Virus record (IMG/VR): IMGVR_UViG_3300029288_000007
Coordinates: 1 to 64,000 of that record
Strand: one strand, 5' to 3'
Length of the DNA stretch: 64,000 nt
Source of the DNA: a virus
Lineage: Duplodnaviria > Caudoviricetes
The notes under the pieces are model-generated. The model made no database searches, was not told the DNA's origin, and saw only the letters and a program-made list of their open reading frames with translations. This document shows, in pieces, positions 2,424 through 30,220 of this stretch (positions are counted from its first letter, which is position 1; the number at the start of each line of letters is the position of its first letter). Both the position numbers and the translations under genes were made by a program.

Positions 2424-2436
2424 AATCAGTGACCCC

Positions 2437-13609: not shown

Positions 13610-15064
13610 TTAACTCCCCATATTGTTTTCATCAATGGCTCCATTTTCTTTTTGGAAAGGCTTTTGTTCTTTTGCAAGCGCCTTTTCCTGTTCAATGGTT
13701 CTATCCGCAGGTAATATTTCTCCAAGCTGTAATTTATACAAGAAAGTATCCTGAGAAATTTCCCCTGCCTGCCGTGCCTGTAACAGCGCCGTAATATCCT
13801 GAGCAGAAAGTTTTTCAGAAACAAATTCTCTATTCAACTTTACCTCTGAGCTTTCCTTTGCCCCAATCCATTGAGCAAGATAATTCAGAGCTTTGATAAA
13901 TCCCTGTTCAGAACTATTCACAATTGACGACAGTGTTGCAGAATCCCCAGAGAAATGCATCCGAACTGTATCGGCAGCCTCGGCAGCCTTCTTTTGGTCT
14001 TCAAGTAAACGCGCTCCCATTACTGCCATTTGAGCTTCAATCCGCTCTAAAGCCTTAACCACCGCTTCAAGACCTTGACCAGTAAATTCTAAAAACCCAC
14101 ATTTTGCAGTTGGGTCTTCACTTATCCAAGCTTTTAAAGCGCCAAGATAAAGGGTTGTATCCTTCCCAAAACCGCAGGCGTATGGAGTTGGCAATGCACA
14201 ATAATGAAGACCATGATAATAATCAACATTAACTTGCCAATGTTTAATATTCAAATTTGCCAAATCAATCAAAGGGGGATCTTCTGGAATCGGAGAATTG
14301 CTTATACAACCAAAAAAAACAAAGGGAATTTCCGTCCAATTCTTCCCTCTGATTTTAGGATACATATCTCCCCCGACTTGTTCCCAAATTTCTTTTTTGT
14401 TATTCTCTTGTAGAACTTTCCGATATACCTTTACAACTAAAATACCCCCCTCAATAGTCAAAACCCTCACTCTGTCTTCGCTAACCATAACAAAGGGATT
14501 GTCTGTAGAAGGCAAATCTACTTTTTCAGACAAACAAAGCATTACGAGTTTGCTTTCATCTCCAATTTGCTTTGTTTGTAAATTTAAAATTGTTGCTGCC
14601 GGATACAAAGCAAAATACGGGTTGGCTGCCGAGCCAATTTTAGCTTGATTTTCATCAACAACAGGAGCATCAACAAGAATTCCAAAGTAACCATATTCAA
14701 TTTGGTTTTCAATTACCACTCTTATAACTTCTTGAATAGACTCTCCGTTTAAAGTAATAAACGGCAATAAATTATCTACAGTTGGGGGACATTTTATTTG
14801 TGGTTCTTTACGAACAACTGCACCTGTAAGTCCTATTACTGTTCTTTTAAACGCATTGAAAAAAGATCCTCTGGAAATATAAGCATTGTATTCATCATCA
14901 GTCTGGCCAGACAATTTTGGCAAATACATCGTGCCTGCATACTTCATGGCCGACTCTCCGCCCATCACAGCTTCAATCTTTGTCCATTCAGGTTCTTTCG
15001 ATTTGTATTCCTTGCTTTTTGCGTTCGGAGTTAGAGCCGATTCCCCTTTTGTTGGTGTTGACAT
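13610..15064 (-). CDS. Portal protein (DUF4055-type)
   Basis: YLPKLSGQ...Y.AY..R..FFN, EIPFVF, PPLIDLA.LNI.H, FLEFTG.GL, GARLL motifs; upstream of MuF. Confidence 0.9.
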   Translation of the reverse strand: MSTPTKGESALTPNAKSKEYKSKEPEWTKIEAVMGGESAMKYAGTMYLPKLSGQTDDEYNAYISRGSFFNAFKRTVIGLTGAVVRKEPQIKCPPTVDNLLPFITLNGESIQEVIRVVIENQIEYGYFGILVDAPVVDENQAKIGSAANPYFALYPAATILNLQTKQIGDESKLVMLCLSEKVDLPSTDNPFVMVSEDRVRVLTIEGGILVVKVYRKVLQENNKKEIWEQVGGDMYPKIRGKNWTEIPFVFFGCISNSPIPEDPPLIDLANLNIKHWQVNVDYYHGLHYCALPTPYACGFGKDTTLYLGALKAWISEDPTAKCGFLEFTGQGLEAVVKALERIEAQMAVMGARLLEDQKKAAEAADTVRMHFSGDSATLSSIVNSSEQGFIKALNYLAQWIGAKESSEVKLNREFVSEKLSAQDITALLQARQAGEISQDTFLYKLQLGEILPADRTIEQEKALAKEQKPFQKENGAIDENNMGS

Positions 15065-15094: not shown

Positions 15095-15982
15095 TTATAA
15101 AATTGACGCAGGGCAATTGGCCATAGCATGCAACACCGTTTCATCTATGGACAATCCGTGCAACCTCGCTGCCGCCGCAACTTCTCCTACCTTTAAAGAA
15201 GCAGCATTCAATTCCATCGTTACTTTGTACCCAAGATAATCTCCAGAAATGTTTGTTTTAAAATCACGGACAGAAATTGTTTTTACCTTTTCAAAAGGAA
15301 AATAATATCTCTGATGATAATAATCTGCAATAATTACAGCGTCCACATCCTGACAGTCTTTGGAAAGCAAAGAAACATTATTTGAAAAAACAATTTCTCC
15401 AGGAGCCCGGATAACAAAATCAATTCTCAAATTATATAAAAAATCAGAGATATATGCTCCGATGGCTCCCTCTGTAATAATCAAAAACTTATCTCTCCAA
15501 ACAGAAAATCCGTTTTCAAATAATAATTTCAAAATTTTAAAACCAATGGAATCAAAAATTCCTATTTTAATTTCGTCGGTTCCGATGGTTAAAATTTCCT
15601 TCTCTTTGCAATATTTAAGGTCTATATCCTCAGTCCGAACTTGTTGGGGCATCATCATCAATGGAACGACCGCTGTAGATTTCATTTTGTCAATTTTCTC
15701 TTTATCAATAGGTCTAACATGACCAGAATTTGTTATAATATCCGCTTCCTTTATTGCATCAAAATTATTAACAATATAAAACCTATCGAGGGGAGAATTC
15801 TCCTCTGCATTAGGATTATATGCGTAAACAAAAGCCCCTGCATAATAAGCCATAACGGAGGTCATTAAATAATTCTTTGTTGCCAGCTCCGTAAATACAG
15901 TCAGGCCCGTTAAATCCAAATGATATTTTTCTATTAACTTCTTTGCATAATTAGATTTTTGTTCTAGCAACGTTCTGTCCAT
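15095..15982 (-). CDS. Polysaccharide-locus hypothetical protein (Rossmann/dehydrogenase-like)
   Basis: LDL.GLTV.TE.AT..Y, DIITNSGHVRPI, DIDL..C.EK.I..GT.E motifs, as recalled from glycan clusters. Confidence 0.55.
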   Translation of the reverse strand: MDRTLLEQKSNYAKKLIEKYHLDLTGLTVFTELATKNYLMTSVMAYYAGAFVYAYNPNAEENSPLDRFYIVNNFDAIKEADIITNSGHVRPIDKEKIDKMKSTAVVPLMMMPQQVRTEDIDLKYCKEKEILTIGTDEIKIGIFDSIGFKILKLLFENGFSVWRDKFLIITEGAIGAYISDFLYNLRIDFVIRAPGEIVFSNNVSLLSKDCQDVDAVIIADYYHQRYYFPFEKVKTISVRDFKTNISGDYLGYKVTMELNAASLKVGEVAAAARLHGLSIDETVLHAMANCPASIL

Positions 15983-16686
15983 TCCTGTGCAATCTCCATT
16001 AATGTTGGCATCCGATTTTTATCGTTTAACAAACACTCAAGATAATCCCTCGTCCCTTTTTTTCTTTTATTAATATATTTCGCCGCTACCTCAATAAAAG
16101 GGAATTGATTGTACTCTGATTTAAAAGCTACATAATCTTCCCACCGCGCTGTGTTGAGATAAATATGAATTGGATGAAAACATAATATTTTAAGGCCCGG
16201 GCATGTTGGCTTTTCCCACAATGGATTGCCAACCATCTCTGCGTCGTCAGACCAAAAATATGGCATACGAATAATCTGGCAACTATAAGCATAATTCGTT
16301 ACGAAAGGTTGAATATTCGCCATGCCGCCAAGATAAACTGAACTGTCAATAGACATACCCATCATCGAAAACATTCTGGCTATTGCTGCAGAATAAACCA
16401 TCGCATGGCTTCTTACTGCAACAGCCCCGGGAACAATACGTTTTAAATTATTCATTATTTTTGTAGGACTATCTCCTTGAGTAGTCCCTTGTAAAAAGTT
16501 TGGATGAATCCCGGCATCAATTTCCTTTTTACAAGCAACAATTTCCTTTATAGAAGGACTATCATGAGTAACGAACCAAGTGCTTCGACGATTTGCTTTT
16601 TTTAAAATTTGACGCACTCTTTCTATTGCAAAGTCTGGAGCCCAATCGACATCTAGAGTAATAGAAAAGGAATTTATCATTACCAA
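15964..16686 (-). CDS. Polysaccharide deacetylase-like protein (WbmS-like)
   Basis: ITLDVDWAPDF, TWFVTH, GIHPNF, RSH, P.FW.DD, FHPIH. Confidence 0.8.
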   Translation of the reverse strand: MVMINSFSITLDVDWAPDFAIERVRQILKKANRRSTWFVTHDSPSIKEIVACKKEIDAGIHPNFLQGTTQGDSPTKIMNNLKRIVPGAVAVRSHAMVYSAAIARMFSMMGMSIDSSVYLGGMANIQPFVTNYAYSCQIIRMPYFWSDDAEMVGNPLWEKPTCPGLKILCFHPIHIYLNTARWEDYVAFKSEYNQFPFIEVAAKYINKRKKGTRDYLECLLNDKNRMPTLMEIAQEWTERC

Positions 16687-17636
16687 CCAGCCTCCTTTTT
16701 AAAATCTTCAAGACCCTGTTCATATGTATATATTGGCACCCAGTTTAAATCAACTTCAGTTTCTCTTATATTAAAAATACAACTTTGTTTTCTGATTTCT
16801 TCTTTGTCAGGACAATAAATTATTTTTGATTGTTTATTGCGAACTCTTTCTGGTTGCATTGGGTCTAAACATATTTCCGGCATTTTTTCATATGGAGAAA
16901 ACACTCGAATAATTGCTTTGACTTCATCTTCAATGGTCAAACCTATGCCCGAGCCAACATTGTAATATCCTTTGGCATTTTTCGATTCGATGGCGGCAAT
17001 AAAGGCCCGGCAAACGTCTTTGACATAAATCATATCTCTTTTTGTTGAAGGAGGATTTCCCCATATTTCAATATCTTCTCCTTTTCTAGCCTTATCAATA
17101 AATTGATGAAATGGGGAATTATATTTTGTATCTGCGCTGCCGTACCCCCTGATATTTGCAAGCCGTAAAATAATCCCTTGTACAATCTTTTGTTTTGTAT
17201 ATACTTCAACCATGTCTGCCGCAGCCACTTTGGATTGTATAAAAGGAATTGAATTATGAGACCAAGAACTTGTTCCATATTCTTGACATCCATAATTATC
17301 TATCTTGGCTGCAGAATAACGATTTGTATCAGAATGAGTCATTGCATAAATAAACTTCTTTACTTTAAGTAAACGGCAAAGTTCCAACATATTATAAGTG
17401 CCAATAGTATTGACATCGAAATATTCTTTGGCTGTATGACCATTAATCATAAGTTTGGCCGCAAGATGAACAATTGCATCGATGGGTTTTCCAAAAAGAT
17501 ATTGCCAAACTTCTGGAGAAAGAAAAAGATTAGAAACATCTGAATCTAAAACAATAACTTCCCAATCTAATGAGTCCATCATCTTGACCAAATACTTACC
17601 AACAAATCCTTTTCCTCCTGTTATTAAAACTCTCAT
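16680..17636 (-). CDS. NAD-dependent sugar epimerase/dehydratase (extended SDR)
   Basis: ITGGKGFVG, VHLAA, (F)IQSK at the YxxxK position, RDMIYVKDV, YNVGSG. Confidence 0.9.
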   Translation of the reverse strand: MRVLITGGKGFVGKYLVKMMDSLDWEVIVLDSDVSNLFLSPEVWQYLFGKPIDAIVHLAAKLMINGHTAKEYFDVNTIGTYNMLELCRLLKVKKFIYAMTHSDTNRYSAAKIDNYGCQEYGTSSWSHNSIPFIQSKVAAADMVEVYTKQKIVQGIILRLANIRGYGSADTKYNSPFHQFIDKARKGEDIEIWGNPPSTKRDMIYVKDVCRAFIAAIESKNAKGYYNVGSGIGLTIEDEVKAIIRVFSPYEKMPEICLDPMQPERVRNKQSKIIYCPDKEEIRKQSCIFNIRETEVDLNWVPIYTYEQGLEDFKKEAGW

Positions 17637-18715
17637 GTTGCACTCTCCAGATTTTGAAATGGGACAACATAAAAATATTTATAATACTCTAACAATTCTT
17701 CCTTCGATTTTCTTAAAATGGCCGGTTCAAAAATCAAAGTATAATATTTGTAAATGCTTTCTTCAGCTCCAAAACGCTTTTTGAAATGATAAACTCCTTC
17801 TTGCCCGGGGATTGTTGTTCCTCCCCAATTCCAATATTTAAAGCCGCGTTGCGCGGCATCCCTCATCGCATCAAGAATAACAACATGCAAAGGGTCATAA
17901 TGACGAAAATTAACATCTAGAGCAGGAATCATATAATCGACTGTTTTGTTAAAATATTTCAATAACAAACCGGCCATCGTGACATTGCCCATATTTTCAT
18001 GGGCAACATTTGTAAAAATTTTATAATCTTCTCCGTACATTAATTGGTCTTTAATTATTTCAAATTCCCTTTCTTTGTAAGGAGCGCCAATCGCTTTCAT
18101 ATTGTCAGAGTGAGTATTTTTTATCCAATTAAAATCTCCTCCATCGCAACCTTCAATCGTTATTCCGTGTTGAATACTTTTTTTAATTTGATTGCGAGTC
18201 TTCTGGTGAACCAAGGCCATTACTGTTTTGTCGAATTCCTCGTCGTTCGTATATTCAGGGATACGGGTAATCATTCCAATGCGACTATCAACAAACAATT
18301 TCGCCTGATTATATTCATCAAAAAAAACATCGTAAAGGAAATCTTCCCCAAAAGGATTTGATATGAAGGTAGCAGAAACGCAATTTGTCCATCTGGCAAT
18401 ATCGCAAAACCTTTGTATCAACATTATTTTTATTTTTTCTGAATCCGCCAAGACGCCCGGGTTGCTACCAAACCAAGGCAAAGAATTTAAAACCGGGCCG
18501 AACTTTCCATGCTTAACAAACGAAGGCAAAATACCAACAATCTTACCTTCTTCTTTTGCAACAAGATAAAATGGAGTGCAACCAATACCAAATAGCCTTA
18601 TTAAAAAGAAACGAAATTGAATAGAACAATTAAACATGGACAAATCATGTTGCTTTGCATAATCGTTCCATGCTTTAATATCATTAACATTCAGCAATTC
18701 TATATCAACTGGCAT
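17633..18715 (-). CDS. FemAB-like GNAT-fold acyl/aminoacyl transferase
   Basis: LNSLPWFGS, KTRNQIKK, YWNWGG...GVYHFK.RFGA. Confidence 0.8.
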   Translation of the reverse strand: MPVDIELLNVNDIKAWNDYAKQHDLSMFNCSIQFRFFLIRLFGIGCTPFYLVAKEEGKIVGILPSFVKHGKFGPVLNSLPWFGSNPGVLADSEKIKIMLIQRFCDIARWTNCVSATFISNPFGEDFLYDVFFDEYNQAKLFVDSRIGMITRIPEYTNDEEFDKTVMALVHQKTRNQIKKSIQHGITIEGCDGGDFNWIKNTHSDNMKAIGAPYKEREFEIIKDQLMYGEDYKIFTNVAHENMGNVTMAGLLLKYFNKTVDYMIPALDVNFRHYDPLHVVILDAMRDAAQRGFKYWNWGGTTIPGQEGVYHFKKRFGAEESIYKYYTLIFEPAILRKSKEELLEYYKYFYVVPFQNLESAT

Positions 18716-18754
18716 AAATACTCCTTTGGCAATATTATAGTATGATTAAGAAAA

Positions 18755-19717
18755 TTAAAAGATATTATTTTGACTATAATACCAATCAATTGTTTTGCGC
18801 AGACCTTCCTCCATTCCAATCCGATGTTCCCATCCCAATAAGTCCTTGGCCTTTAAAGGATTTGCAATATGACGACGAACATCTCCGGGACGGGCCGGTT
18901 CAAACCTAATTATTGGAGGAACGTATTTGGTTGTTGGCAACATCAACTTCCAAATTTCTGAAACCAACCACAATATTTGAATATCATGACCAGAACCAAC
19001 GTTAATTATTTCTCCTGAAATATTTTCATTCAGCCCGGCTAAAACAGCGGCCCTTGCAATATCTTCAACATAAGTATAATCTCTTGTTTGCCTTCCGTCT
19101 CCATAAATAAGAGGATTTTGCCCTTTTTTAATTCTTTCAATTGTCAAAGGAATTACCCCTGCATAGTTGCCTTTATTCTGACGCGGCCCATAAGCATTGA
19201 ATGGCCTTAAAATCGTCACATCGGAACCAAATGTTTTATGATACGACAAACAAAGTAAATCGCAAGCCGCTTTGGCCGCTGCGTACGGAGTTGACGCGCC
19301 TAGAGGATGCCGTTCGCACATAGGTTCATATTCTGCAGTGCCATATACTTCAGAAGAAGAAAAATGAATTAATCTCTTAAAACAACCTTCCCTTTGCAAT
19401 TCTAAAAGATTTTGAACAATCTTAACATTAACGTCAAAATTGGAAAAAGGGTTTTCCAAAGAATGGGGCAACGGTAAAACCGCCAAATTATAAACTATAT
19501 CAAAATTGTGAACAATTGGAATGAGAGATTTTTTCTTTGACGCATCTAATTGGTGAATATTTGACCAACTCACAGGCATATTTTCTAAATTTTTTCTTTT
19601 GCCCAAAAATAAACTATCGACAATGGTCACATCGGCATAATCATCAATTAATGCCTCCGCCAAATGAGAACCTATAAAACCTGCACCGCCAACTACCAAT
19701 ACTTTCTTTCCCATCAT
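18755..19717 (-). CDS. NAD-dependent nucleotide-sugar epimerase/dehydratase
   Basis: GGAGFIGSHL, SSSEVYG, YAAAK, RPFNAYGPRQ, GDG.QTRDYTYV; start placed at MMGKK. Confidence 0.93.
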   Translation of the reverse strand: MMGKKVLVVGGAGFIGSHLAEALIDDYADVTIVDSLFLGKRKNLENMPVSWSNIHQLDASKKKSLIPIVHNFDIVYNLAVLPLPHSLENPFSNFDVNVKIVQNLLELQREGCFKRLIHFSSSEVYGTAEYEPMCERHPLGASTPYAAAKAACDLLCLSYHKTFGSDVTILRPFNAYGPRQNKGNYAGVIPLTIERIKKGQNPLIYGDGRQTRDYTYVEDIARAAVLAGLNENISGEIINVGSGHDIQILWLVSEIWKLMLPTTKYVPPIIRFEPARPGDVRRHIANPLKAKDLLGWEHRIGMEEGLRKTIDWYYSQNNIF

Positions 19718-19719
19718 AT

Positions 19720-20070
19720 TCACACCATGTATAAAGGAGGAGTTGGAATTGCCTGCTTTTGAGGTCTCCATAAATGCAAACAATTCTCATGAAGATTAAT
19801 ATGCTTTGATTCCGCCGGGTGAAGTTGCATAACTATCTCATCCGGTTTAAAAAACAGGCGCTTTACAAAATCCATCTCTCTCCAAGTGGGAGTCCTATGC
19901 GGCAAAGAAATAGAAACATGGTCCCAACCATCGCCATTACTTGCAATTATCCTTAAATTTTTGTCTTTTTGAACGGGAGATACTACTTCATAATAACCAC
20001 CGCTTTTGTCTCCGTATCCCATTGTAGGATGGGGCCTCATATATCTTGTCAATTCCTTTAAATCTTTCAT
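19720..20070 (-). CDS. Conserved phage protein (WDHVS...RTPTW.EM family)
   Basis: GWDHVSIS...RTPTW.EM..VK.LFF...H...CLHLWRP. Confidence 0.8.
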   Translation of the reverse strand: MKDLKELTRYMRPHPTMGYGDKSGGYYEVVSPVQKDKNLRIIASNGDGWDHVSISLPHRTPTWREMDFVKRLFFKPDEIVMQLHPAESKHINLHENCLHLWRPQKQAIPTPPLYMV

Positions 20071-20074
20071 CCTT

Positions 20075-20365
20075 TTACTCCTGTTTAAAACCCGGGCCGG
20101 TAAAGGAAACATAATCTTGAGTTATTTCCAAAAACCATTTTGAAATATAATCAAAATCATAACCCAACCAAATTACCTTGTTCGATTCGAGACCATTTGC
20201 TTTTTGAAAATTCAACAAGACGTTCTCTCTCATAGATTTAATATACTCCCGAATTATATTTTCTGGGACTTTATTTATTTTCAAAATTCGTTTCACTTCA
20301 TTTATATTGTAAAATATGTTTTGAGTGAACCGATGCAAATCAATATTAAAAGGGGTAATTGGCAT
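20075..20365 (-). CDS. Hypothetical protein
   Basis: ORF filling the gap between neighbours; start placed at MPITPF. Confidence 0.5.
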   Translation of the reverse strand: MPITPFNIDLHRFTQNIFYNINEVKRILKINKVPENIIREYIKSMRENVLLNFQKANGLESNKVIWLGYDFDYISKWFLEITQDYVSFTGPGFKQE

Positions 20366-20366
20366 T

Positions 20367-20627
20367 TTATCTAAACTCCAAAAATCTTCCTTTCCCCAAA
20401 AAGACGGCGTCATCAACCGGACATTTATCATTTGGATTCTCAGCCAACATGTCAAGAGTAATCATCTCTGTATACTCAACTTCGCGGCCATCCATTAATT
20501 GTCCGATTAAACGATTCCGGCCTTGGTCTCTCATCCAATTCCATTGTTTCTGAGAAAAATATAAATCCCCAGAAAGATTACTTTCTGTCAACTTCTCCGC
20601 AAAATCAACCGGGCCTAATTTACCCAT
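20367..20627 (-). CDS. Hypothetical protein
   Basis: 86-aa ORF overlapping the upstream stop. Confidence 0.55.
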   Translation of the reverse strand: MGKLGPVDFAEKLTESNLSGDLYFSQKQWNWMRDQGRNRLIGQLMDGREVEYTEMITLDMLAENPNDKCPVDDAVFLGKGRFLEFR

Positions 20628-21708
20628 TTTTCTTCCCCCATTCTTTTTTTAAATTTAATCCATACCATATTGGCAAAGACAAACATTCTTCGTAAAGTTG
20701 TGTAGAATTAATTAAATGTAATTTTTTATTGTCGTAAAAAGCAGGGAACAAATGACAAGCATAAGTTCCGATCCCTGTTTCAAACCCTTTCTTTTTAAAA
20801 TACTTTTCGACTCGTTGGCGATCATGGACACATCTTACGACAAACGCTTGAAAAATATCTCCAACCATTGAAGGTAGAATAATTAATTCATCCCTTAAAA
20901 ATTTATCATCCTCGATAATTTCTCTCCACGCAGACGCGACTTTTCTCCTCCACGCAATCATTTTGTCGATTCTGCTTAACTGAACCAAACCGATGGCCGC
21001 AGTTATATCGCTCATTTTGAAATTGAATCCGCAACCCGGGGAAAGAAAAAAAATTGATTTTTTTCTTTTGTACGTCCTTTCCACTCCAAAATTCGACATT
21101 AACCGAACTTGGTTCGCCAAGTCGTCGTCATTTGTTGCTACCAAACCCCCTTCTCCTGTAGTAATTCCTTTACGAGCATGAAGAGAAAAGCAACCCAAAT
21201 CACCAATTGTCCCAATTTTTTTGCCTCCATAAGTTGCTCCCAAAGCGCATGCGGCATCCTCAATTACTTTTAATCCACATGTTTTGGCAAAATTCATAAT
21301 ATAAAACATTTGAGCTGGACGTCCAAATAAATGAACAGGAATAATTGCTTTTGTTTTCTTTGTAACAACTTTACAAATAGTTTTTGCATGTATGTTATAT
21401 GAATAAAAAGAAACGTCGGCTGGAACAGCGGTTGCTCCTACAGCTTGAATCGCAAGGGCAGTGGCAGGAAACGTGAAATCTGGGTAAATAACTTCGTCTT
21501 CCGGTTGGATATTTAATGCCTTTAAAGAAAGAAAAAGGGCAGAGGTACAATTTGTCACGCTGATGACATGTTTGCATTTAAGATATTTTGCCGCAGCGCG
21601 TTCAAACTCTTCGCAAACCGGGCCTTGACTAACCCATCCTGACTTCATCACTTTTTTAACTGCATCAACGTCATCTTGATTAAAATATGGTTTATTCAAT
21701 GGGATCAT
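20620..21708 (-). CDS. DegT/DnrJ/EryC1/StrS PLP sugar aminotransferase (WbpE-like role)
   Basis: SGWVSQGP...FE, IIPVHLFG, IEDAACALG, FSLH.RK.ITTGEGG, LSLP. Confidence 0.95.
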   Translation of the reverse strand: MIPLNKPYFNQDDVDAVKKVMKSGWVSQGPVCEEFERAAAKYLKCKHVISVTNCTSALFLSLKALNIQPEDEVIYPDFTFPATALAIQAVGATAVPADVSFYSYNIHAKTICKVVTKKTKAIIPVHLFGRPAQMFYIMNFAKTCGLKVIEDAACALGATYGGKKIGTIGDLGCFSLHARKGITTGEGGLVATNDDDLANQVRLMSNFGVERTYKRKKSIFFLSPGCGFNFKMSDITAAIGLVQLSRIDKMIAWRRKVASAWREIIEDDKFLRDELIILPSMVGDIFQAFVVRCVHDRQRVEKYFKKKGFETGIGTYACHLFPAFYDNKKLHLINSTQLYEECLSLPIWYGLNLKKEWGKKNG

Positions 21709-21940
21709 TTTTGATTCCTTTCCCTTTCAAAAAAACATCATACTCATTTCTCAAAGAAATAAAACCTTCTGTTTCCGAAACTTGTATGAATATCAACAAA
21801 AGCTGAAGAAATGTCCTTTCTGATATCGATAATTTGCTTTTATTTTCATCTAGAACATTTAATTGTGCATCAAATTCCTTATGATTCATTCCATCCCCCT
21901 TATTTCCTTTGTCCCAAAAATTGACCAGATAAAATTTCAT
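21692..21940 (-). CDS. Hypothetical protein
   Basis: Short ORF in operon context. Confidence 0.4.
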   Translation of the reverse strand: MKFYLVNFWDKGNKGDGMNHKEFDAQLNVLDENKSKLSISERTFLQLLLIFIQVSETEGFISLRNEYDVFLKGKGIKNDPIE

Positions 21941-22041
21941 TCATCTGGAAAAGAAAAGGCACTTTCTTTTTCTTTGATAATTCTTGAGCAATTTTCATTG
22001 CGGTTGTTTTCCCTGCTCGCCGGGCATTCAAAAATATGATG

Positions 22042-22485
22042 TTATTGGTCGCCATTTATTTGCCTCATTGGACTGCCAACTACTTTCATACCCGGGTCAA
22101 TATTTTTGTGGATACAAGTCCCGGCGCCAATCATCGCGCCAGCCCCCACTTCAATCCCGGGGAGAATAACACAACCGGCCCCAATGGCCGCGCCGCGCCT
22201 GATATAAGTTTTCTTCCAATGTTTTTTGTCTTTAGAAGGAGGATACAAATCATTAGTAAACACGCACCCGGGGCCGATGAAACAACCATCCTCAATAACA
22301 ATCCCCTCTGGGATAAAGCAATGGGCTCCAATCCTTACATCGTTGCCAATAAATACCTTCCCAGATATTTCAACAAACGCTCCAATATTACAATTGGTGC
22401 CAATTTCAATATCTCCATAAATGTTTACCAGATTCGGATGCCAGATTTTTGTTGCAGAGCCAATCTTAACACTGTTACCAATCAT
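22042..22485 (-). CDS. Hexapeptide-repeat sugar N-acetyltransferase (WbpD/WlbB-like)
   Basis: KIWH, IG.NCNIG, IEDGCFIGP.CVFTND.YP, IGAG repeats. Confidence 0.92.
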   Translation of the reverse strand: MIGNSVKIGSATKIWHPNLVNIYGDIEIGTNCNIGAFVEISGKVFIGNDVRIGAHCFIPEGIVIEDGCFIGPGCVFTNDLYPPSKDKKHWKKTYIRRGAAIGAGCVILPGIEVGAGAMIGAGTCIHKNIDPGMKVVGSPMRQINGDQ

Positions 22486-22505
22486 TTTTATCCTCCTAAA
22501 TTAAA

Positions 22506-22535
22506 AGGCTGGGGAAGGCATTTCCTCCCCAGCCT
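22506..22535 (-). terminator. Intrinsic terminator
   Basis: aggctgggga/tccccagcct stem followed by TTT on the minus strand. Confidence 0.65.
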
Positions 22536-22583
22536 ACCCATGTAATAAAGCGTTTCTCCAAATCTTATCTAAAAATAAAACTG

Positions 22584-22592
22584 TTATTTCAT
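22584..22592 (-). other. Met-Lys-stop minigene with strong SD
   Basis: GGAGGTGA (22605-22598), 5 nt, then ATG AAA TAA. Confidence 0.45.
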
Positions 22593-22670
22593 ATAAATCA
22601 CCTCCAAAATTAAAATTTGTTCAAGTCAATATATCAATCTCCCATCAAAGTTTTATTATAACTCCTTTTT

Positions 22671-23675
22671 TTAAAACTCATAGATAATTTCTGGCAATCT
22701 ACCTCCATTCATATAAGTATCAATATGACGAATCAAATCAATAAGATACAAATACCTTTTTAAAATAATCTTTGTATTGAAATTAAAAGCAACAAAGTCC
22801 CTTGTTGCCGCGCCCAACGTAGCCAAATCATTTGAATTCATTTGAGCCAGCTTTCTTATCTGGTCTTTCAAATTCTCTTTGCAAATAGTAACAGTCGGGT
22901 TGTTAGGATAAAAAGTCATCATCCAAGGGTCAATACAACTCATGACGACTTGGCCTTGCCACATGCTCTCGATGCCGCTTATTCCCCATGCGCCATGAAG
23001 ACTGGTAAATGTAACTTGGCTTTCCAACTTCTTTTTTAAACATTCCTCATTTGACAATTGGCTTAATATTTGAAGTTCAACCTTTACCCCTTCTTCTTGT
23101 AATTCTTGAATTGTTTGATTCAAAAATTCGTATCCCTTGTAAGGACTGCCGGCTGACCCGGCGCTGATTTTTAAAGGGCCGTTCCCTTTTTGGGAACAAC
23201 ATGGAATTTCCTTAATATCCATATCTCCATATTTCGTAAAGTAAGAACCAAGATGATAAAAAGAACCAAGCAGATGCCCGGTGATAGACCAGTCAGTTCC
23301 TGTAATGGCAGAAAACCCGGTTGTTTCATGAAATTTCTTTATTGTTTGCCAACCTGTTCTCAACTCGGAACCGTAATACTTTATGCAACAATTGTTTTTA
23401 TTAAGAACATTGCGGTTCCATTCCACCCCGGGCCAATCAAATATCCCTCTTCCAAAATGAAAGAAGTCGCATTGTTTGGCCCACGCCGTTGCTTCCTCAC
23501 AAGCTTCTTTAATCCAATTCATATTGCTTTTCAAAATGATATCTTTATCATAAGCAAAAGAATCATCGTGTGCGATTATGCACCGGGCCTGATGATTTGT
23601 ATATTTGTTAATTGCACTGGCAAGCGCTGTTGGTTGGCCAGCTATATTAAAATCAGATATGACTGCTATTTTCAT
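22671..23675 (-). CDS. GT-B (GT4-like) glycosyltransferase
   Basis: Start MKIAVISDF with AGGAG SD; YKG...,  WGISGIESM..G..V (EX7E-like region). Confidence 0.7.
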   Translation of the reverse strand: MKIAVISDFNIAGQPTALASAINKYTNHQARCIIAHDDSFAYDKDIILKSNMNWIKEACEEATAWAKQCDFFHFGRGIFDWPGVEWNRNVLNKNNCCIKYYGSELRTGWQTIKKFHETTGFSAITGTDWSITGHLLGSFYHLGSYFTKYGDMDIKEIPCCSQKGNGPLKISAGSAGSPYKGYEFLNQTIQELQEEGVKVELQILSQLSNEECLKKKLESQVTFTSLHGAWGISGIESMWQGQVVMSCIDPWMMTFYPNNPTVTICKENLKDQIRKLAQMNSNDLATLGAATRDFVAFNFNTKIILKRYLYLIDLIRHIDTYMNGGRLPEIIYEF

Positions 23676-23709
23676 TTTGTTCTCCTTTTTAATTTTACTT
23701 GGACAAAAC

Positions 23710-24021
23710 TTAAAACCCAAACCCAGTTCTCCCTGTTCCTCGGAAAATTCCAATTCCAAAGCCGGTGCCGGAAATAAATTTTTTCTTTCTTTCAAAAGGA
23801 CAATCGACCTGTAATCTTTGTGGTTGCAATGGTTCATCGAAGGTTTTTACTTGATGCCATATTTTGCCGGTAAACAAAACTTTTACCCTTTCCAAAAAAG
23901 ACAACGACCAACAAAAAGTCGCGATACTTTCTTTTAAATTCATATGGGCCGGCAACGGTAAATATTCATCTTGGTCTTTTGCATAAATCGTATTTCCTTC
24001 AGGAAATTTTATTGGCGTCAT
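23710..24021 (-). CDS. Conserved phage hypothetical protein
   Basis: P..FPE.N...AKDQ.EY.PLPA...CW.LS..ER..LFTG.IW motif. Confidence 0.75.
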   Translation of the reverse strand: MTPIKFPEGNTIYAKDQDEYLPLPAHMNLKESIATFCWSLSFLERVKVLFTGKIWHQVKTFDEPLQPQRLQVDCPFERKKKFISGTGFGIGIFRGTGRTGFGF

Positions 24022-24159
24022 TTTTCTCCTCCTCGATATCCTCTCCTGAATTCCTTGTAGTCAAAACAAGATTAGAAAAAGAACAATTTCTTAAATGCTT
24101 ATTCACATCCTTTTGTTTTGCAAATATTGTTTTGCAATAAGGACATCTATATTTTTTCT

Positions 24160-24915
24160 TCATTTTAAAGTTTCCCTTCTTTTTTTTGCCCCTGCAAGAA
24201 AATCATTGATTCCCAAAATTGTATTCAAAAAAGGATGGGACAACTGCTTCTCCAAAATGACCATATTTTGCAAGACGCAATGGCCTCCGATGGGTTCCAA
24301 AAAACCGGGAGAATCCAGAACGTAACGTTGAAAATCAGGCAATCCCAACGCAACATTTAGACGATTGTATTCACGGTCATATTCCTTGCAAATTTCATAA
24401 TCAAAACCCAAGCGAGAAGCTGAAAAAGCTGAATATCTAGCCATTTCAATATTGACACCATACAAGGCCAAAGACCTTAACTTCAAAAACTCTGTGATTT
24501 CCGGCTTTGGGAAGACCTTGCAATCAATTCCGCATTGTTCAAAGAAGGCCCGGGCCGTTTCGTCTTCTCCGCCAATCCAGCGAATATTTTCTTTTAAATA
24601 CTGATACATCACATCGCGATTATCGTGCCGGGCCTCAATAGGAGAATGCACCGCGACTATCTGGGAACAAGTTCCGATTGGAACGGTCGAAAGAACAATT
24701 GTAACCTTCGGAAAAAAGATTTCTTTATAATGAACAACATCCTGGACAAATGTTTTTGAATAGGGAATGGAAACCAACATTACATCAACATGCCAATCTC
24801 CTTCATAACAATAAAAGTTTTTGGCTGGGTCATGAATAAACATCTTATGAAATTCGCCCCAGGCAAGATGAGCGGCATTCCCAACTTCGCCATAACCAAT
24901 TAATATTGTTTTCAT
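24160..24915 (-). CDS. UDP-sugar 6-dehydrogenase-like protein (UDP-glucose/GDP-mannose DH family, compact; WbpA-like role)
   Basis: IGYGEVG, STVP.GT, HSP, TEFLKL, catalytic GGHC. Confidence 0.8.
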   Translation of the reverse strand: MKTILIGYGEVGNAAHLAWGEFHKMFIHDPAKNFYCYEGDWHVDVMLVSIPYSKTFVQDVVHYKEIFFPKVTIVLSTVPIGTCSQIVAVHSPIEARHDNRDVMYQYLKENIRWIGGEDETARAFFEQCGIDCKVFPKPEITEFLKLRSLALYGVNIEMARYSAFSASRLGFDYEICKEYDREYNRLNVALGLPDFQRYVLDSPGFLEPIGGHCVLQNMVILEKQLSHPFLNTILGINDFLAGAKKRRETLK

Positions 24916-25073
24916 CTTTTGTAATCCTTTTTTGCCTGTAAATATCTTCTTCGTTCTGCTAAAGCAACCATTGGCGTTGCGTATCCGCTTTGGGAATACT
25001 TTGTTGTTGACGGCTTTGTTGCTTTGTCTTCATAAACCATTCTGCGCAATTGTTTTGCTATTGTTCCTCTCAT
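24912..25073 (-). CDS. Small basic hypothetical protein (53 aa)
   Basis: Own translation MRGTIAKQLRR...QAKKDYKR; GGAGG SD; ATGA overlap with the next gene. Confidence 0.6.
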   Translation of the reverse strand: MRGTIAKQLRRMVYEDKATKPSTTKYSQSGYATPMVALAERRRYLQAKKDYKR

Positions 25074-25174
25074 TATTCCCTCCGTTTTATTTTAGGGACA
25101 GGCGGTGCTTTAACTTCATGGGTAGGTAGCCGAAAAACCCCAATCCATTAAAGCTTCCGCCGCCTGTCTTTTTT

Positions 25175-25468
25175 TTAATTAAGAGCAATTCTGTTTTTAT
25201 CTTTCACCAAAAACCAATTCCCAGGGCGTCCTTCAATTTGGCTGTAATTGGACAATTCATATTTAACAACCAAATCTGTCAACTTCACCGCGTCTCTGGC
25301 TGTCAACTTCATTGGAACCTTCTTTTTGTATTCCAAAATAGAATGGCCCAAATAGAACATCGATGCAATATAAAAAAGAACAACGCAAAAAACAACCATT
25401 GCCGCCTTAAAATCAAAGACCAACATTCTTTTATCGGGATAGTAAATTTTTCTCTTTTCCAAGAACAT
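25175..25468 (-). CDS. Hypothetical membrane protein
   Basis: One hydrophobic segment (AAMVVFCVVLFYIASMFYL). Confidence 0.5.
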   Translation of the reverse strand: MFLEKRKIYYPDKRMLVFDFKAAMVVFCVVLFYIASMFYLGHSILEYKKKVPMKLTARDAVKLTDLVVKYELSNYSQIEGRPGNWFLVKDKNRIALN

Positions 25469-25643
25469 TTTCTTCTCCTTTGTCTAATCCATCAAAGACA
25501 ATAATGCCCGGCTTAAATAAATAAGACAAAAACACCGTTATTCTATTGGCACACTTTGGGCAATCGGTAGATATCTTTCCATCTGTTTTATTACAAAAAA
25601 TTTCTTTGCAATCTGGGCAGTATCTTGCTTCGTGAAGTTTCAT
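25431..25643 (-). CDS. Small zinc-ribbon protein
   Basis: CPDC...CPKC; preceded by promoter motif 1 at 25664-25673. Confidence 0.6.
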   Translation of the reverse strand: MKLHEARYCPDCKEIFCNKTDGKISTDCPKCANRITVFLSYLFKPGIIVFDGLDKGEENVLGKEKNLLSR

Positions 25644-25684
25644 TAATTTCCCCTTACAATTTAATTATACTCCCAAACAAATAT

Positions 25685-26203
25685 TTACTGATTTTTATTT
25701 TTTCTTCCCTTTGCAATCATTGCCCAGCGCTGATAGATTATATCATTGGTGGCATATCCATGCCAACGCTCAATCATATCTTCAAAAGACAAAATCCTGC
25801 TGTCGCTTTGTAAAGGGTCTTTTAAGAAAATTTTGTTCCTGTTGGAATCATATCCTTTGACTACGCAATAATGGCCATAGTTGTTGCTGTCGCGCCAATC
25901 CATATCCTTTCTTTTTTTAATCTGAATTTCCACCATGGCCGGGTAACCATTATCAACCGCCTCTATCAAATTATGGATAAACAATCCCGTCCTCGAAACA
26001 ACCTTGAGGCCATACAACTCAGCCACAGCCACAATATTAGGTATGTCAGCGCCGTGTTTTGGTTCAAGACAAAGCAGTTCTTTAATTTTTTTGTGGGTTT
26101 CCTTGATTTCGTAAAATCTTAAGATAGATTGCAGAGCGCACGACCCGCAGTCCGAGTCGTTGCTCTGAATCACAGTCGGTATGTTCAAAAGTTTTCTGGC
26201 CAT
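25685..26203 (-). CDS. C39-like cysteine peptidase
   Basis: Q....DCG..AL, GHYCVV.GYD, DP (Cys-His-Asp). Confidence 0.85.
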   Translation of the reverse strand: MARKLLNIPTVIQSNDSDCGSCALQSILRFYEIKETHKKIKELLCLEPKHGADIPNIVAVAELYGLKVVSRTGLFIHNLIEAVDNGYPAMVEIQIKKRKDMDWRDSNNYGHYCVVKGYDSNRNKIFLKDPLQSDSRILSFEDMIERWHGYATNDIIYQRWAMIAKGRKNKNQ

Positions 26204-26205
26204 CT

Positions 26206-26442
26206 TTATTGTTTGCTGTATTTTGCCAATGGATTTTCCTTAATTTCAATCCTCATGCGGAAATATCTTATCCATCGCTCCTCTCCCAGCTCCGCCAAGG
26301 ACAAATTCAACATTTCCACCGCTTCAAACATCTTCTTTTGAGCATTTCTAAAAGTTTCATCAATAGAAGGGTTTCTTTCATAGGCCCTTGCTAATATGTC
26401 ATCTTCCAGTCCATCTATGTGGGGGCAAAAATCTTCTTGCAT
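26206..26442 (-). CDS. Hypothetical protein
   Basis: 78-aa ORF with SD. Confidence 0.5.
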   Translation of the reverse strand: MQEDFCPHIDGLEDDILARAYERNPSIDETFRNAQKKMFEAVEMLNLSLAELGEERWIRYFRMRIEIKENPLAKYSKQ

Positions 26443-26455
26443 GGCCTTCTCCCTT

Positions 26456-27385
26456 TTATAGCAATTCTTTTTCTATCCTTACCCGGTTATAAACACCGCT
26501 CATCCTGTAACCATATTGATGACTGGTGCGGTTCAAAACCCATGTCAAATAAAAAATATCCTTTGGCTTGACCCCTTTCCCTTTTAAGATATCCTCATAC
26601 ATCCGGTTGTAAAGGTCTTGCATATCAATCTTCATGAGGTCAAGAGTTTGTTTGCCCGGCCTTGAAGGAATGAAAAAGTCTGTTGTCATGCCCATGCCGA
26701 TTGGACGTTGTTTCCATGTAGTCGCCCCCAAACTTTCTGCAATTGCCGCCCTATCCCCCCGCATACGATAAATCTCAAAATCATCAATGGTAACCGTTTC
26801 TGCTTTAGTCATTCCCTGCCATTGGATTTCCCTGACCTGTTGTCCATTCATCAATACTTCGCCCTCAAAATCAGCATCCAGCCTGATTGCCAAGTCGATA
26901 TAATGAATGAAAAACTCATAGATATTGCCGCCAGCCTGAAAAGGGTCTCCCTTCCATGACTCAAAGAACTTCTTATCCCGAACCATTACCGCTTTGACCA
27001 AATCAGCCTTTTCTGGCAAGTCATTTATCCAGCGCAATTGCAAAACAACATTTATACGGTCATCATCAATAATTGGCTCCCACGGCAGGCATAATGGTTT
27101 CTCGCAAATGATTTGCGCGTCAGTTTCTTGTAAAATCATTTTGCAATAATTCCTATGGGTGTTGTTTGGACTACAGATAACCACGTAATCGTTTTTGGTC
27201 AAGCTTTTCAAATTGGAGGGATACAATTTGTTCATCTGTATCGGAAGCCCAGTCAACCCGGTGTAATATTTCTCTTCAATCAGCGCCGGGTCATAAATAC
27301 CAACCAATTCTCCTTCCACATACTCAATGGCCTTTTTATGCCGCTGAGCAATAATCCCATCCCCTATCAAGAAAAATCTTTTCAT
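26456..27385 (-). CDS. Gfo/Idh/MocA oxidoreductase (WbpB/WlbA-like UDP-GlcNAcA 3-dehydrogenase)
   Basis: FFLIG.G.IA.RH..AI, ICSPN..H, ICEKPL, VLQLR, IHY.D. Confidence 0.85.
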   Translation of the reverse strand: MKRFFLIGDGIIAQRHKKAIEYVEGELVGIYDPALIEEKYYTGLTGLPIQMNKLYPSNLKSLTKNDYVVICSPNNTHRNYCKMILQETDAQIICEKPLCLPWEPIIDDDRINVVLQLRWINDLPEKADLVKAVMVRDKKFFESWKGDPFQAGGNIYEFFIHYIDLAIRLDADFEGEVLMNGQQVREIQWQGMTKAETVTIDDFEIYRMRGDRAAIAESLGATTWKQRPIGMGMTTDFFIPSRPGKQTLDLMKIDMQDLYNRMYEDILKGKGVKPKDIFYLTWVLNRTSHQYGYRMSGVYNRVRIEKELL

Positions 27386-30174: not shown

Positions 30175-30220
30175 TTCCTTCCTTAAACTTATTATACTCC
30201 CAAATGCATTTTATCAAAAA

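What the first reader, a model, noticed from the sequence alone, without database searches (positions are those of the whole stretch)
15095..27385. Phage-encoded diacetamido-uronic-acid-type nucleotide-sugar pathway inserted between terminase and portal
Seen: a 6-dehydrogenase (24160), Gfo/Idh/MocA dehydrogenase (26456), DegT aminotransferase (20620) and hexapeptide acetyltransferase (22042), plus two SDR epimerases, a WbmS-like deacetylase, a FemAB-like transferase and a GT-B glycosyltransferase. They are interleaved with ordinary phage genes and split terL from portal by ~16 kb. Known: WbpA-WbpB-WbpE-WbpD make UDP-GlcNAc(3NAc)A in Pseudomonas, with Wlb equivalents in Bordetella. No Wzx/Wzy/flippase or other polytopic membrane glycan machinery is evident. 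Inference: the phage makes its own rare, further-decorated sugar late in infection for a soluble target (virion proteins or DNA), not for O-antigen conversion.
Basis: partly seen in the sequence, partly recalled or inferred. Interest (0 to 1): 0.82.

Follow-up and report, generated by a model that had tools for sequence, protein, structure and literature searches.

The report
Phage capsid-module amino-sugar glycosylation system
An uncultured 92-kb phage and about twenty relatives carry, inside their head-assembly genes, their own pathway for a rare N-acylated amino sugar plus two soluble sugar-attaching enzymes related to those that decorate bacterial flagella, so the phage most likely sugar-coats its own capsid.

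Summary
The gene content is real. Between terL (30942-32429) and portal (13610-15064) lie:
- a Gfo/Idh/MocA dehydrogenase, a DegT aminotransferase and a small hexapeptide N-acetyltransferase;
- two SDRs, a WbmS-like deacetylase and a FemAB-like transferase;
- a GT-B glycosyltransferase (fold-confirmed);
- a 251-aa protein that is a truncated UDP-sugar 6-dehydrogenase. It keeps the catalytic Cys and Lys but has no UDP-binding domain.

The block is not a recent host capture. About 20 uncultured relatives carry it at the same site, and enzyme identity tracks portal identity (r = 0.91).

The WbpA-B-E-D reading is only partly supported. The Gfo gene is accessory and is missing from a complete relative, so the exact sugar is unresolved.

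The target is better supported:
- Cellular homologues of the GT-B and of a GT2 sit in flagellar loci. The GT-B homologues do so in 8 of 9 long loci, the GT2 homologues in three of them.
- The phage GT2 always follows the capsid and cement genes (7 of 7 genomes).
- A natural GT2::GT-B fusion exists.
- The genome has no polytopic membrane protein and no ThyA homologue.

Best reading (about 0.6): autonomous virion-protein glycosylation of flagellin-glycosylation ancestry. "Late" expression is not shown. No GenBank phage carries the GT-B or the mini-dehydrogenase.

The parts
30942..32429 (-). Terminase large subunit; upstream boundary of the block
   Evidence: phrog_2 2.3e-37; 56% identical to terL of MW202621
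26456..27385 (-). Gfo/Idh/MocA sugar dehydrogenase (WbpB/WlbA-like); accessory member of the module
   Evidence: PF01408 2.9e-11. The only PDB hits are WbpB 3oa2 (1.4e-8), WlbA 3o9z and 8qc2. EKP and GGxxxxxxxHxxD motifs are invariant in 7 orthologues. Absent from G005, G006 and G007.
24160..24915 (-). Truncated UDP-sugar 6-dehydrogenase-like protein ('mini-UGDH'): Rossmann plus central domain, no UDP-binding domain
   Evidence: AF2 pLDDT 96. Foldseek top hits are UDP-ManNAc and UDP-Glc dehydrogenases, TMq 0.70. The profile aligns Lys145 and Cys213 with the UGDH catalytic Lys and Cys. 695 clusters at E<=1e-30, mostly 230-260 aa.
22671..23675 (-). Soluble GT-B (GT4-like) glycosyltransferase; catalytic domain homologous to TPR-GT-B proteins of flagellar loci
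   Evidence: AF2 pLDDT 92.5. Foldseek PimA, BshA, PglA. 34% identity, E 1e-51, to the Zixibacteria flagellar-locus TPR-GT-B. TPR-fused homologues. GT2::GT-B fusion P0188.
22042..22485 (-). Small left-handed beta-helix N-acetyltransferase (WlbB/QdtC/FdtD class)
   Evidence: PF00132 4.8e-23. PDB 7s43 7e-28, FdtD 4mzu, WlbB 3mqg 3e-25, QdtC 3fs8.
20620..21708 (-). PLP-dependent sugar aminotransferase (DegT family)
   Evidence: PF01041 5.8e-100. NCBIfam PseC 261 bits, LegC 231, ArnB 221, all below their cut-offs. PDB perosamine synthase 194 bits, QdtB 175, WbpE 136. 32% identical to E. coli ArnB.
20367..20627 (-). Conserved 86-aa protein of unknown role, always between DegT and SDR2
   Evidence: Present in 11 type-A loci; no Pfam hit
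18755..19783 (-). SDR2: extended SDR with SSE and YxxxK motifs (dehydratase/decarboxylase type). The true start is probably near 19717.
   Evidence: PF16363 and PF01370 ~1e-57. LegB model 196 bits, RmlB model 186. PDB 6dnt, UXS. E. coli RfbB 126 bits, ArnA 76. The Glu is conserved in orthologues.
17633..18715 (-). FemAB/Acetyltransf_6-family (amino)acyl transferase
   Evidence: PF02388 2e-11. TIGR03019 1.4e-23, below cut-off. Only a weak PDB hit, FemX 6snr at 0.077. Present in all full type-A loci.
16680..17636 (-). SDR1: SDR with an intact GxxGxxG but the catalytic Tyr replaced by an invariant Phe (PFxxSK), and an invariant THSD
   Evidence: PF01370 1.6e-34; motif conservation in 7 orthologues
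15964..16686 (-). WbmS-like deacetylase (accessory)
   Evidence: PF22537 4.4e-45; PDB 3hft 1.2e-25. Fused to a hexapeptide transferase in relative G002.
15095..15982 (-). 295-aa protein with a 2-hydroxyacid-dehydrogenase-like fold (accessory; travels with WbmS)
   Evidence: ESM Atlas structure TM 0.6 to 2-Hacid_dh families, a lead only. Co-occurs with WbmS in 6 loci. Homologues lie next to the TPR-GT-B in flagellar loci.
13610..15064 (-). Portal protein; downstream boundary of the block
   Evidence: phrog_145 3.8e-121
1209..2492 (-). Soluble GT2 glycosyltransferase with a helical C-terminal domain, directly after the capsid and cement genes. Probable start is the Met at 2423.
   Evidence: PF00535 3.7e-18. 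47.6% identity to the catalytic domain of a TPR-GT2-TPR protein in a flagellar locus. MCP-cement-GT2 order in 7 of 7 genomes. Fused to the GT-B in P0188.
2437..2907 (-). 156-aa Bbp16-like capsid cement protein with a Ser/Thr-rich patch; candidate acceptor
   Evidence: ESM Atlas: Bbp16 cement family, TM 0.61-0.72, a lead only; sequence
2978..3913 (-). Major capsid protein; candidate acceptor
   Evidence: phrog_212 4.7e-83
30191..30201 (-). Phage promoter motif GGGAGTATAAT inside the block (also at 28462-28472 and 25664-25674)
   Evidence: 10 matches in the window against 0.85 expected. The same motif precedes replication-region genes.
22506..22535 (-). Strong terminator-like hairpin between the GT-B and the acetyltransferase
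   Evidence: 12-bp stem with 8 GC pairs, followed by a T-run

Best explanation
The block is a self-contained, phage-inherited protein-glycosylation system built into the head-morphogenesis module.

Inferred sugar pathway. Soluble enzymes turn a host nucleotide sugar into a rare N-acylated amino sugar:
- An SDR of the dehydratase/decarboxylase type (SDR2) and/or the Gfo dehydrogenase creates a keto group.
- DegT transaminates it, and the small hexapeptide transferase N-acetylates the amine.
- The truncated UGDH-like enzyme supplies a C6 oxidation.
- A Tyr-less SDR, a FemAB-like (amino)acyl transferase and, in some genomes, a WbmS-like deacetylase with partner enzymes further tailor or re-acylate the sugar.

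Inferred transfer. Two soluble glycosyltransferases attach the sugar or sugars to exposed virion proteins, most likely the Bbp16-like cement protein and/or the major capsid protein. One is the GT-B in the block. The other is the GT2 that follows the capsid and cement genes.

Shown here: enzyme classes, folds, conservation, synteny, the fusions and the homology to flagellar-locus genes.

Inferred only: the order of steps, the identity of the sugar and the acceptor.
For: 1. Enzyme classes are confirmed.
2. The same module sits between terL and portal in about 20 uncultured phages. The core is mini-UGDH, GT-B, HexAT, DegT, u86, SDR2, FemAB, SDR1. Identities are 37-67%, and mean enzyme identity tracks portal identity (r = 0.91, n = 10).
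3. GC content matches the rest of the genome.
4. The only cellular homologues on long contigs are TPR-GT-B proteins. In 8 of 9 long loci (Zixibacteria, Ignavibacteriales) these lie among flagellin, FliD, FliS, FlgI/K/L and FliW genes. Next to them are SDR, DegT, acyl- or formyltransferase and u295-like genes, and in three loci a TPR-GT2-TPR protein. TPR plus GT-B is the architecture of the flagellin glycosyltransferase FlmG, whose TPR domain binds flagellin (bioRxiv 10.1101/2022.03.25.485807).
5. The MCP-cement-GT2 order holds in 7 of 7 genomes. A natural GT2::GT-B fusion, P0188, ties the capsid-adjacent GT2 to the GT-B in the block.
6. The mini-UGDH family occurs in 275 IMG/VR stretches. In the 80 loci examined, five recurrent arrangements place it beside portal, capsid or adaptor genes together with sugar genes.
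7. The genome has no polytopic membrane protein and no ThyA homologue.
Against: - There is no direct evidence of a glycan on any virion protein.
- The phage GT-B and GT2 lack the TPR domains that recognise the acceptor in cellular homologues, so the acceptor is a guess from synteny.
- The sugar pathway cannot be ordered uniquely. The acetyltransferase belongs to the class that, to my recollection, is known for C3 amines. DegT resembles C4 aminotransferases more closely. Gfo is patchy among relatives.
- The mini-UGDH has no nucleotide-binding domain, so its substrate is unknown.
- Another note on this genome proposes a DNA-modification module, so DNA remains a possible acceptor.
- Expression timing is unknown.
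Confidence: 0.6

Rival explanations
1. Mini-UGDH, Gfo, DegT and HexAT act as WbpA, WbpB, WbpE and WbpD and make UDP-GlcNAc3NAcA. SDR2, SDR1, WbmS and FemAB then epimerise, decarboxylate or re-acylate it. This rival concerns the identity of the sugar and is compatible with a virion-protein target.
For: - All four enzyme classes are present.
- The only PDB hits of Gfo are WbpB, WlbA and 8qc2.
- HexAT matches WlbB at 3e-25 and, to my recollection, belongs to the C3-amine acetyltransferase class.
- Mini-UGDH::hexapeptide fusions (P0096, P0225) and adjacent pairs link C6 oxidation with N-acetylation.
- Relative L090 has Gfo plus a second DegT and a second hexapeptide transferase. To my recollection, that set fits what a 2,3,4-triacetamido-pentose would need.
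Against: - Gfo is absent from the complete DTR genome G006 and from G005 and G007, which keep orthologous DegT and HexAT.
- The Gfo match is weak (1e-8) and covers only the N-terminal half.
- DegT scores 136 bits against WbpE but 194-210 bits against other aminotransferases.
- The mini-UGDH lacks the UDP-binding domain.
Confidence: 0.3
2. The sugar is attached to phage DNA, as a glycosylated hypermodified base, to evade restriction.
For: - Phages are known to encode nucleotide-sugar pathways and GT-B enzymes for DNA glycosylation (PMC13326640).
- A phage DNA glycosyltransferase (HY126, 9iqz) appears at rank 13 of the fold hits.
Against: - The genome has no thymidylate-synthase homologue to make a hydroxylated pyrimidine acceptor.
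- The sugar genes sit in the head module, not with replication genes.
- The closest cellular homologues of both glycosyltransferases lie in flagellar loci, which points to protein substrates.
- The GT2 is syntenic with the capsid and cement genes.
Confidence: 0.1
3. The system modifies host proteins or surfaces during infection, for example host flagellin or another receptor, to block superinfection or change host behaviour. Virions are not the target.
For: - The homologues are flagellar-locus genes.
- The block contains promoters shared with non-structural genes.
- The block also holds small membrane and secreted proteins.
Against: - The phage enzymes have lost the TPR domains that bind flagellin in FlmG.
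- The positions are strictly conserved between terL and portal and directly after MCP and cement, across about 20 genomes and five lineages.
- The window has no tRNA gene; integrase and lysogeny functions were not searched for.
Confidence: 0.1

Closest known systems
Flagellin O-glycosylation islands with FlmG-type (TPR + GT-B) and TPR-GT2 glycosyltransferases
   Same: - The GT-B and GT2 catalytic domains are homologous (34% and 47.6% identity).
- The neighbouring SDR, DegT, acyltransferase and u295-like genes are shared.
- Both are soluble, cytoplasmic systems that glycosylate proteins.
   Different: - The phage enzymes lack the TPR acceptor-binding domains.
- The phage adds a mini-UGDH, a FemAB-like transferase and a Tyr-less SDR.
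- The phage genes sit in a head module with no flagellin present.
- Sequence homology to Caulobacter FlmG itself was not tested.
Mycobacteriophage virion glycosylation (Freeman et al. 2023, as summarised in PMC12619734)
   Same: Phage-encoded glycosyltransferase genes lie next to structural genes, and glycans are found on capsid and tail-tube subunits.
   Different: To my knowledge those phages encode only glycosyltransferases and use host sugars. Here a biosynthetic pathway of 9 to 12 genes accompanies them, and the hosts and lineage are unrelated.
Autonomous glycosylation of giant viruses (the Mimivirus viosamine and bacillosamine pathways are from my own knowledge; the topic is reviewed in PMC9614988 and PMC4691112, found but not read)
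   Same: The virus encodes a dehydratase, an aminotransferase, an N-acetyltransferase and its own glycosyltransferases to decorate the virion.
   Different: That case is a eukaryotic giant virus. This is a 92-kb tailed phage, and its enzymes appear to come from bacterial flagellar glycosylation.
WbpA-WbpB-WbpE-WbpD / WlbA-D pathway to UDP-GlcNAc3NAcA
   Same: All four enzyme classes are present. Gfo hits WbpB and WlbA, and the acetyltransferase hits WlbB.
   Different: - The 6-dehydrogenase is truncated.
- Gfo is dispensable in relatives.
- DegT is not specifically WbpE-like.
- There is no lipid-linked assembly.
Ugd-ArnA-ArnB route to UDP-L-Ara4N(formyl)
   Same: The logic is the same: 6-dehydrogenase, then an SDR with a Ser/Thr-x-Glu motif, then DegT (32% identical to ArnB), then N-acylation and later de-acylation by a deacetylase-family enzyme.
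   Different: - SDR2 is closer to RfbB (126 bits) than to ArnA (76 bits).
- An acetyltransferase replaces the formyltransferase.
- There are no membrane steps of the ArnC, ArnT or ArnE/F type.

Membership tests
UDP-glucose/GDP-mannose dehydrogenase family (UGDH, WbpA, Cap5O) | N-terminal NAD-binding Rossmann domain with GxGxxG | tested here: met
   G7, G9 and G12 are invariant; the fold matches UGDHs
UDP-glucose/GDP-mannose dehydrogenase family (UGDH, WbpA, Cap5O) | Central helical domain with the catalytic Lys and the GGxC nucleophile | tested here: met
   K145 and G211-H212-C213 are invariant and align with the UGDH Lys and Cys. The Asn four residues after the Lys is Ser, and the Asp four residues after the Cys is Asn.
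UDP-glucose/GDP-mannose dehydrogenase family (UGDH, WbpA, Cap5O) | C-terminal UDP-sugar-binding domain | tested here: not met
   The protein ends at the equivalent of about residue 280 of the 388 residues of Ugd. Family members are 230-260 aa. PF03721 gives no hit in the genome.
WbpA-B-E-D UDP-GlcNAc3NAcA pathway | WbpB/WlbA-type Gfo/Idh/MocA 3-dehydrogenase as an obligatory partner of the aminotransferase | tested here: inconclusive
   Present here with WbpB and WlbA as best PDB hits at 1e-8. Absent from G005, G006 and G007, which keep the rest of the cluster.
WbpA-B-E-D UDP-GlcNAc3NAcA pathway | WbpE-type C3 aminotransferase | tested here: inconclusive
   It is a DegT-family protein. WbpE scores 136 bits, against 194-210 bits for other aminotransferases.
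WbpA-B-E-D UDP-GlcNAc3NAcA pathway | WbpD/WlbB-type small beta-helix N-acetyltransferase | tested here: met
   WlbB 3mqg at 3.2e-25, among the top four PDB hits
WbpA-B-E-D UDP-GlcNAc3NAcA pathway | The enzymes act in sequence on UDP-GlcNAc | not testable with these tools
   Needs in-vitro reconstitution
FlmG-type flagellin glycosyltransferase | C-terminal GT-B catalytic domain homologous to flagellar-locus enzymes | tested here: met
   GT-B fold. 34% identity, E 1e-51, to a TPR-GT-B lying between FliW and flagellin genes.
FlmG-type flagellin glycosyltransferase | N-terminal TPR domain that binds the acceptor | tested here: not met
   The phage protein is the 334-aa catalytic domain only. TPR-fused forms exist in other contigs and in cells.
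FlmG-type flagellin glycosylation | Sequence homology to the characterised Caulobacter or Brevundimonas FlmG | not tested
Phage virion glycosylation | Glycosyltransferase genes embedded in the structural module | tested here: met
   MCP-cement-GT2 in 7 of 7 genomes; the block lies between terL and portal in about 20 contigs
Phage virion glycosylation | Glycan covalently attached to a virion protein | not testable with these tools
   Needs proteomics or glycan staining
FemAB family aminoacyl-tRNA-dependent transferases | FemAB/GNAT-pair domain match | tested here: inconclusive
   PF02388 at 2e-11 over the C-terminal part only. TIGR03019 scores 83 bits against a cut-off of 260. PDB FemX only 0.077. 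Use of tRNA was not tested.

The most novel reading that the evidence does not exclude
Tailed phages of several lineages run an autonomous capsid O-glycosylation system of flagellar origin. Its hallmark enzyme is a UGDH that has shed its nucleotide-binding domain. In this reading it oxidises the sugar without a nucleotide handle, for example after the sugar has been transferred to the capsid. A FemAB-like enzyme then aminoacylates the amino sugar, possibly from aminoacyl-tRNA, to give a charged, highly unusual capsid glycan.
Probability: 0.12. Interest if true: 0.9.

Novelty: new variant of a known kind. Interest (0 to 1): 0.72.

Why it matters
Virion glycosylation by phage enzymes has, as far as I found, been described only for actinobacteriophages. 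To my knowledge those phages borrow host sugars. Full viral sugar pathways are known mainly from giant viruses.

This system would show that ordinary tailed phages of uncultured bacteria can make and attach their own rare sugar, using machinery derived from flagellin glycosylation. A glycan coat could change adsorption, stability, stickiness to surfaces or mucus, and recognition by defences or predators.

The work also defines two unannotated protein families that are absent from all 50,697 GenBank phage records:
- a truncated UGDH family with at least 695 clusters;
- a stand-alone FlmG-like GT-B family.

The truncated UGDH also marks sugar gene clusters in the structural modules of at least five phage gene arrangements. 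One of them carries a NeuB-NeuC-NeuA nonulosonic-acid set.

Tried and rejected
**Searches that found nothing**
- Megablast of the block, and tblastn of the GT-B and the mini-UGDH, against GenBank phages gave no match. No cultured relative is available.
- The genome has no NeuB and no CMP-transferase, so the donor is not a phage-made nonulosonic acid here.
- The genome has no ThyA homologue, which weakens the DNA reading.
- ARAGORN finds no tRNA in the genome, so a FemAB-tRNA link could not be followed.
- PHROGs gave nothing for the sugar genes.

A single CPR homologue found nothing.

**Tests that did not discriminate**
- I tried to decide between epimerase, 4,6-dehydratase and decarboxylase for SDR2 from motifs and from scores against E. 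coli RfbB, Gmd, ArnA and Fcl. Only a plain epimerase is disfavoured.
- I considered u86 as a 3,4-ketoisomerase. It is too small and has no cupin-like His motif.
- I rejected recent capture from a host LPS locus. The close 'cellular' hits are short phage contigs binned into MAGs of five unrelated phyla, and two of them are essentially identical: same locus length and almost the same ORF coordinates.

Full report
**Setting**

The window is the first 64 kb of a complete 91,723-bp phage record with direct terminal repeats. All genes lie on the minus strand, and GC content is even at 0.35-0.45.

The head module reads terS (32404-33027), terL (30942-32429), portal (13610-15064), a giant MuF protein, scaffold, major capsid protein (2978-3913), a 156-aa protein (2437-2907) and a GT2 (1209-2492). 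terL and portal are 15.9 kb apart. In the nearest GenBank relative (terL 56% identical) they are separated only by a 213-nt ORF, about 250 bp in all.

**Checking the observation**

Pfam, NCBIfam and PDB sequence searches confirm most of the list:
- **Gfo/Idh/MocA.** Its only PDB hits are WbpB, WlbA and 8qc2, at a weak E-value of 1e-8.
- **DegT aminotransferase.** It scores highest against PseC, LegC, ArnB and perosamine synthase, with QdtB next and WbpE lower.
- **147-aa hexapeptide acetyltransferase.** Its best hits are 7s43, FdtD, WlbB and QdtC. To my recollection these all act on C3 amines.
- **Two SDRs, a WbmS-like deacetylase and a FemAB-like protein.**

Two items had no family hit and were tested by structure:
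- **The 'GT-B'.** Its real start is probably M55 at 23675. The AF2 model (pLDDT 92.5) is a GT4-like GT-B fold.
- **The '6-dehydrogenase'.** The model (pLDDT 96) best matches UDP-ManNAc and UDP-glucose dehydrogenases. The family profile aligns the catalytic Lys and the GGxC cysteine. However, it ends at about residue 280 of the 388 residues of E. coli Ugd, so it lacks the UDP-binding domain. PF03721 is absent from the genome.

This is a truncated 'mini-UGDH'.

No ORF in the genome has four or more hydrophobic segments. That supports the absence of Wzx/Wzy-type machinery.

**Conservation**

- Homologues of Gfo, the mini-UGDH and the GT-B recover about 20 uncultured phage contigs with the same arrangement.
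- The universal core is mini-UGDH, GT-B, HexAT, DegT, u86, SDR2, FemAB, SDR1, then portal.
- Accessory genes are Gfo, WbmS with the 295-aa protein, a second hexapeptide transferase and, in L090, a second DegT.
- In G002 the WbmS domain is fused to a hexapeptide transferase. That suggests deacetylation followed by re-acylation.
- Mean enzyme identity tracks portal identity (r = 0.91, n = 10). The block has therefore been inherited with the phage and was not recently taken from a host.
- The close 'cellular' hits are short contigs binned into MAGs of five unrelated phyla. Two of them are essentially identical, so they are phage contigs.

**Which sugar?**

The WbpA-B-E-D scheme is possible for this genome, but three observations weaken it:
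- Gfo is missing from the complete DTR genome G006 and from G005 and G007, although these keep orthologous DegT and HexAT.
- SDR2 carries a Ser-Ser-Glu motif conserved in all orthologues. UXS, ArnA, Gmd and RfbB have a Glu at this position, whereas the epimerase 6dnt has Ala.
- SDR2 scores 126 bits against RfbB and 76 against ArnA, which does not separate dehydratase from decarboxylase.

SDR1 has an invariant Phe in place of the catalytic Tyr and an invariant THSD. It is therefore not a classical oxidoreductase.

My estimates for the sugar are:

| Candidate | Estimate |
|---|---|
| Amine introduced on the keto group made by SDR2 (6-deoxy or pentose amino sugar) | about 50% |
| 2,3-diacetamido uronic acid type | about 30% |
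| Other | about 20% |

Mini-UGDH::hexapeptide fusions (P0096, P0225) link C6 oxidation to N-acetylation. They keep the uronic reading alive.

**Which target?**

This is where the evidence moved most.
- The only cellular GT-B homologues on long contigs are 570-590-aa TPR-GT-B proteins. In 8 of 9 long loci they sit among flagellin, FliD, FliS, FlgI, FlgK, FlgL and FliW genes of Zixibacteria and Ignavibacteriales.
- Beside them are SDR, DegT, formyl- or hexapeptide transferase, asparagine synthase and u295-like genes. In three loci there is also a TPR-GT2-TPR protein whose catalytic domain is 47.6% identical to the phage GT2.
- TPR plus GT-B is the architecture of FlmG. Its TPR domain binds flagellin, and its GT-B domain was proposed to set donor specificity.
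- The phage GT2 follows MCP and the small protein in 7 of 7 genomes. The Atlas links that small protein to the Bbp16 capsid cement family, as a lead only.
- A 925-aa natural protein fuses homologues of this GT2 and of the block's GT-B. The two act together.
- The genome has no ThyA homologue, unlike phages that glycosylate DNA.

I conclude that virion-protein glycosylation is the most likely function (about 0.6). The phage enzymes lack TPR domains, so the acceptor is inferred from synteny only.

**Timing**

The phage's conserved promoter motif GGGAGTATAAT occurs 10 times in the window against 0.85 expected. Three copies lie inside the block, at 30191, 28462 and 25664. The same motif precedes replication-region genes. 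A strong terminator-like hairpin lies at 22506-22535. 'Late' expression is therefore not established.

**Wider picture**

- The mini-UGDH family has 695 clusters at E<=1e-30, nearly all of 230-260 aa.
- IMG/VR holds 275 stretches encoding a relative. In the 80 loci examined, five recurrent arrangements place it beside portal, capsid or adaptor genes together with sugar genes.
- One of the five arrangements has 2-hydroxyacid dehydrogenase, NeuB, NeuC, NeuA and mini-UGDH directly before a P22-like portal.
- Neither this family nor the GT-B occurs in any of 50,697 GenBank phage records.

**Limits**

- Nothing here demonstrates enzyme activity, expression or a glycan.

Noticed in passing
L023, L025, L029, L035-L038, L040, L044, L047, L055, L074, L088 (for example L044:4440-5111 NeuA-like, L040:4281-5303 NeuC-like, L023:955-1752 NeuB-like): A different phage lineage has a 2-hydroxyacid dehydrogenase, NeuB, a UDP-GlcNAc 2-epimerase, a CMP-transferase and the mini-UGDH directly upstream of a P22-like portal gene. 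This looks like a phage-encoded nonulosonic-acid pathway inside the head module.
   Followed up: partly
P0188 (925 aa, on a 17.9-kb metagenomic contig): A natural fusion of a homologue of the capsid-adjacent GT2 (residues 8-337, 35% identical) with a homologue of the block's GT-B (residues 598-925, 48% identical).
   Followed up: yes
window 16680-17636 and its orthologues: An SDR with an intact NAD-binding motif whose catalytic Tyr is an invariant Phe (PFxxSK), next to an invariant THSD. Its chemistry is unexplained.
   Followed up: partly
P0209, P0216, P0260: Mini-UGDH proteins fused to HNH or NUMOD3 homing-endonuclease domains. Mobile endonucleases appear to target this conserved phage gene.
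   Followed up: no
window 25685-26203: A stand-alone C39-family cysteine-peptidase-like protein (PF03412 7e-14) inside the block, in the promoter unit that begins with the motif at 28462. Its role is unknown, and no homologue was detected in the related loci compared.
   Followed up: no
L091 and L092; also L090, L093, L094, L108: An essentially identical phage contig is binned into a Paceibacterota MAG and a Sulfuricurvum MAG. Other relatives are binned into Omnitrophota, Eubacteriales and Colwellbacteria MAGs. These are binning artefacts and say nothing reliable about the host.
   Followed up: partly
G007:C1:18935-21294: This relative carries two tandem copies of the capsid-adjacent GT2 (45% and 35% identical to the window's copy).
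   Followed up: no
L090:9343-11276: This relative has a second, larger hexapeptide transferase (277 aa) and a second DegT between FemAB and SDR1, in addition to Gfo. To my recollection, that enzyme set fits a triacetamido pentose.
   Followed up: partly
L098:13060-15156 and its homologues in L095, L097, L100, L107: Flagellar loci of Ignavibacteriales-type MAGs place an asparagine-synthase-type amidotransferase beside the TPR-GT-B, the DegT and an LpxD-like acyltransferase. This hints at an amidated or acetamidino flagellin glycan in these uncultured phyla.
   Followed up: no
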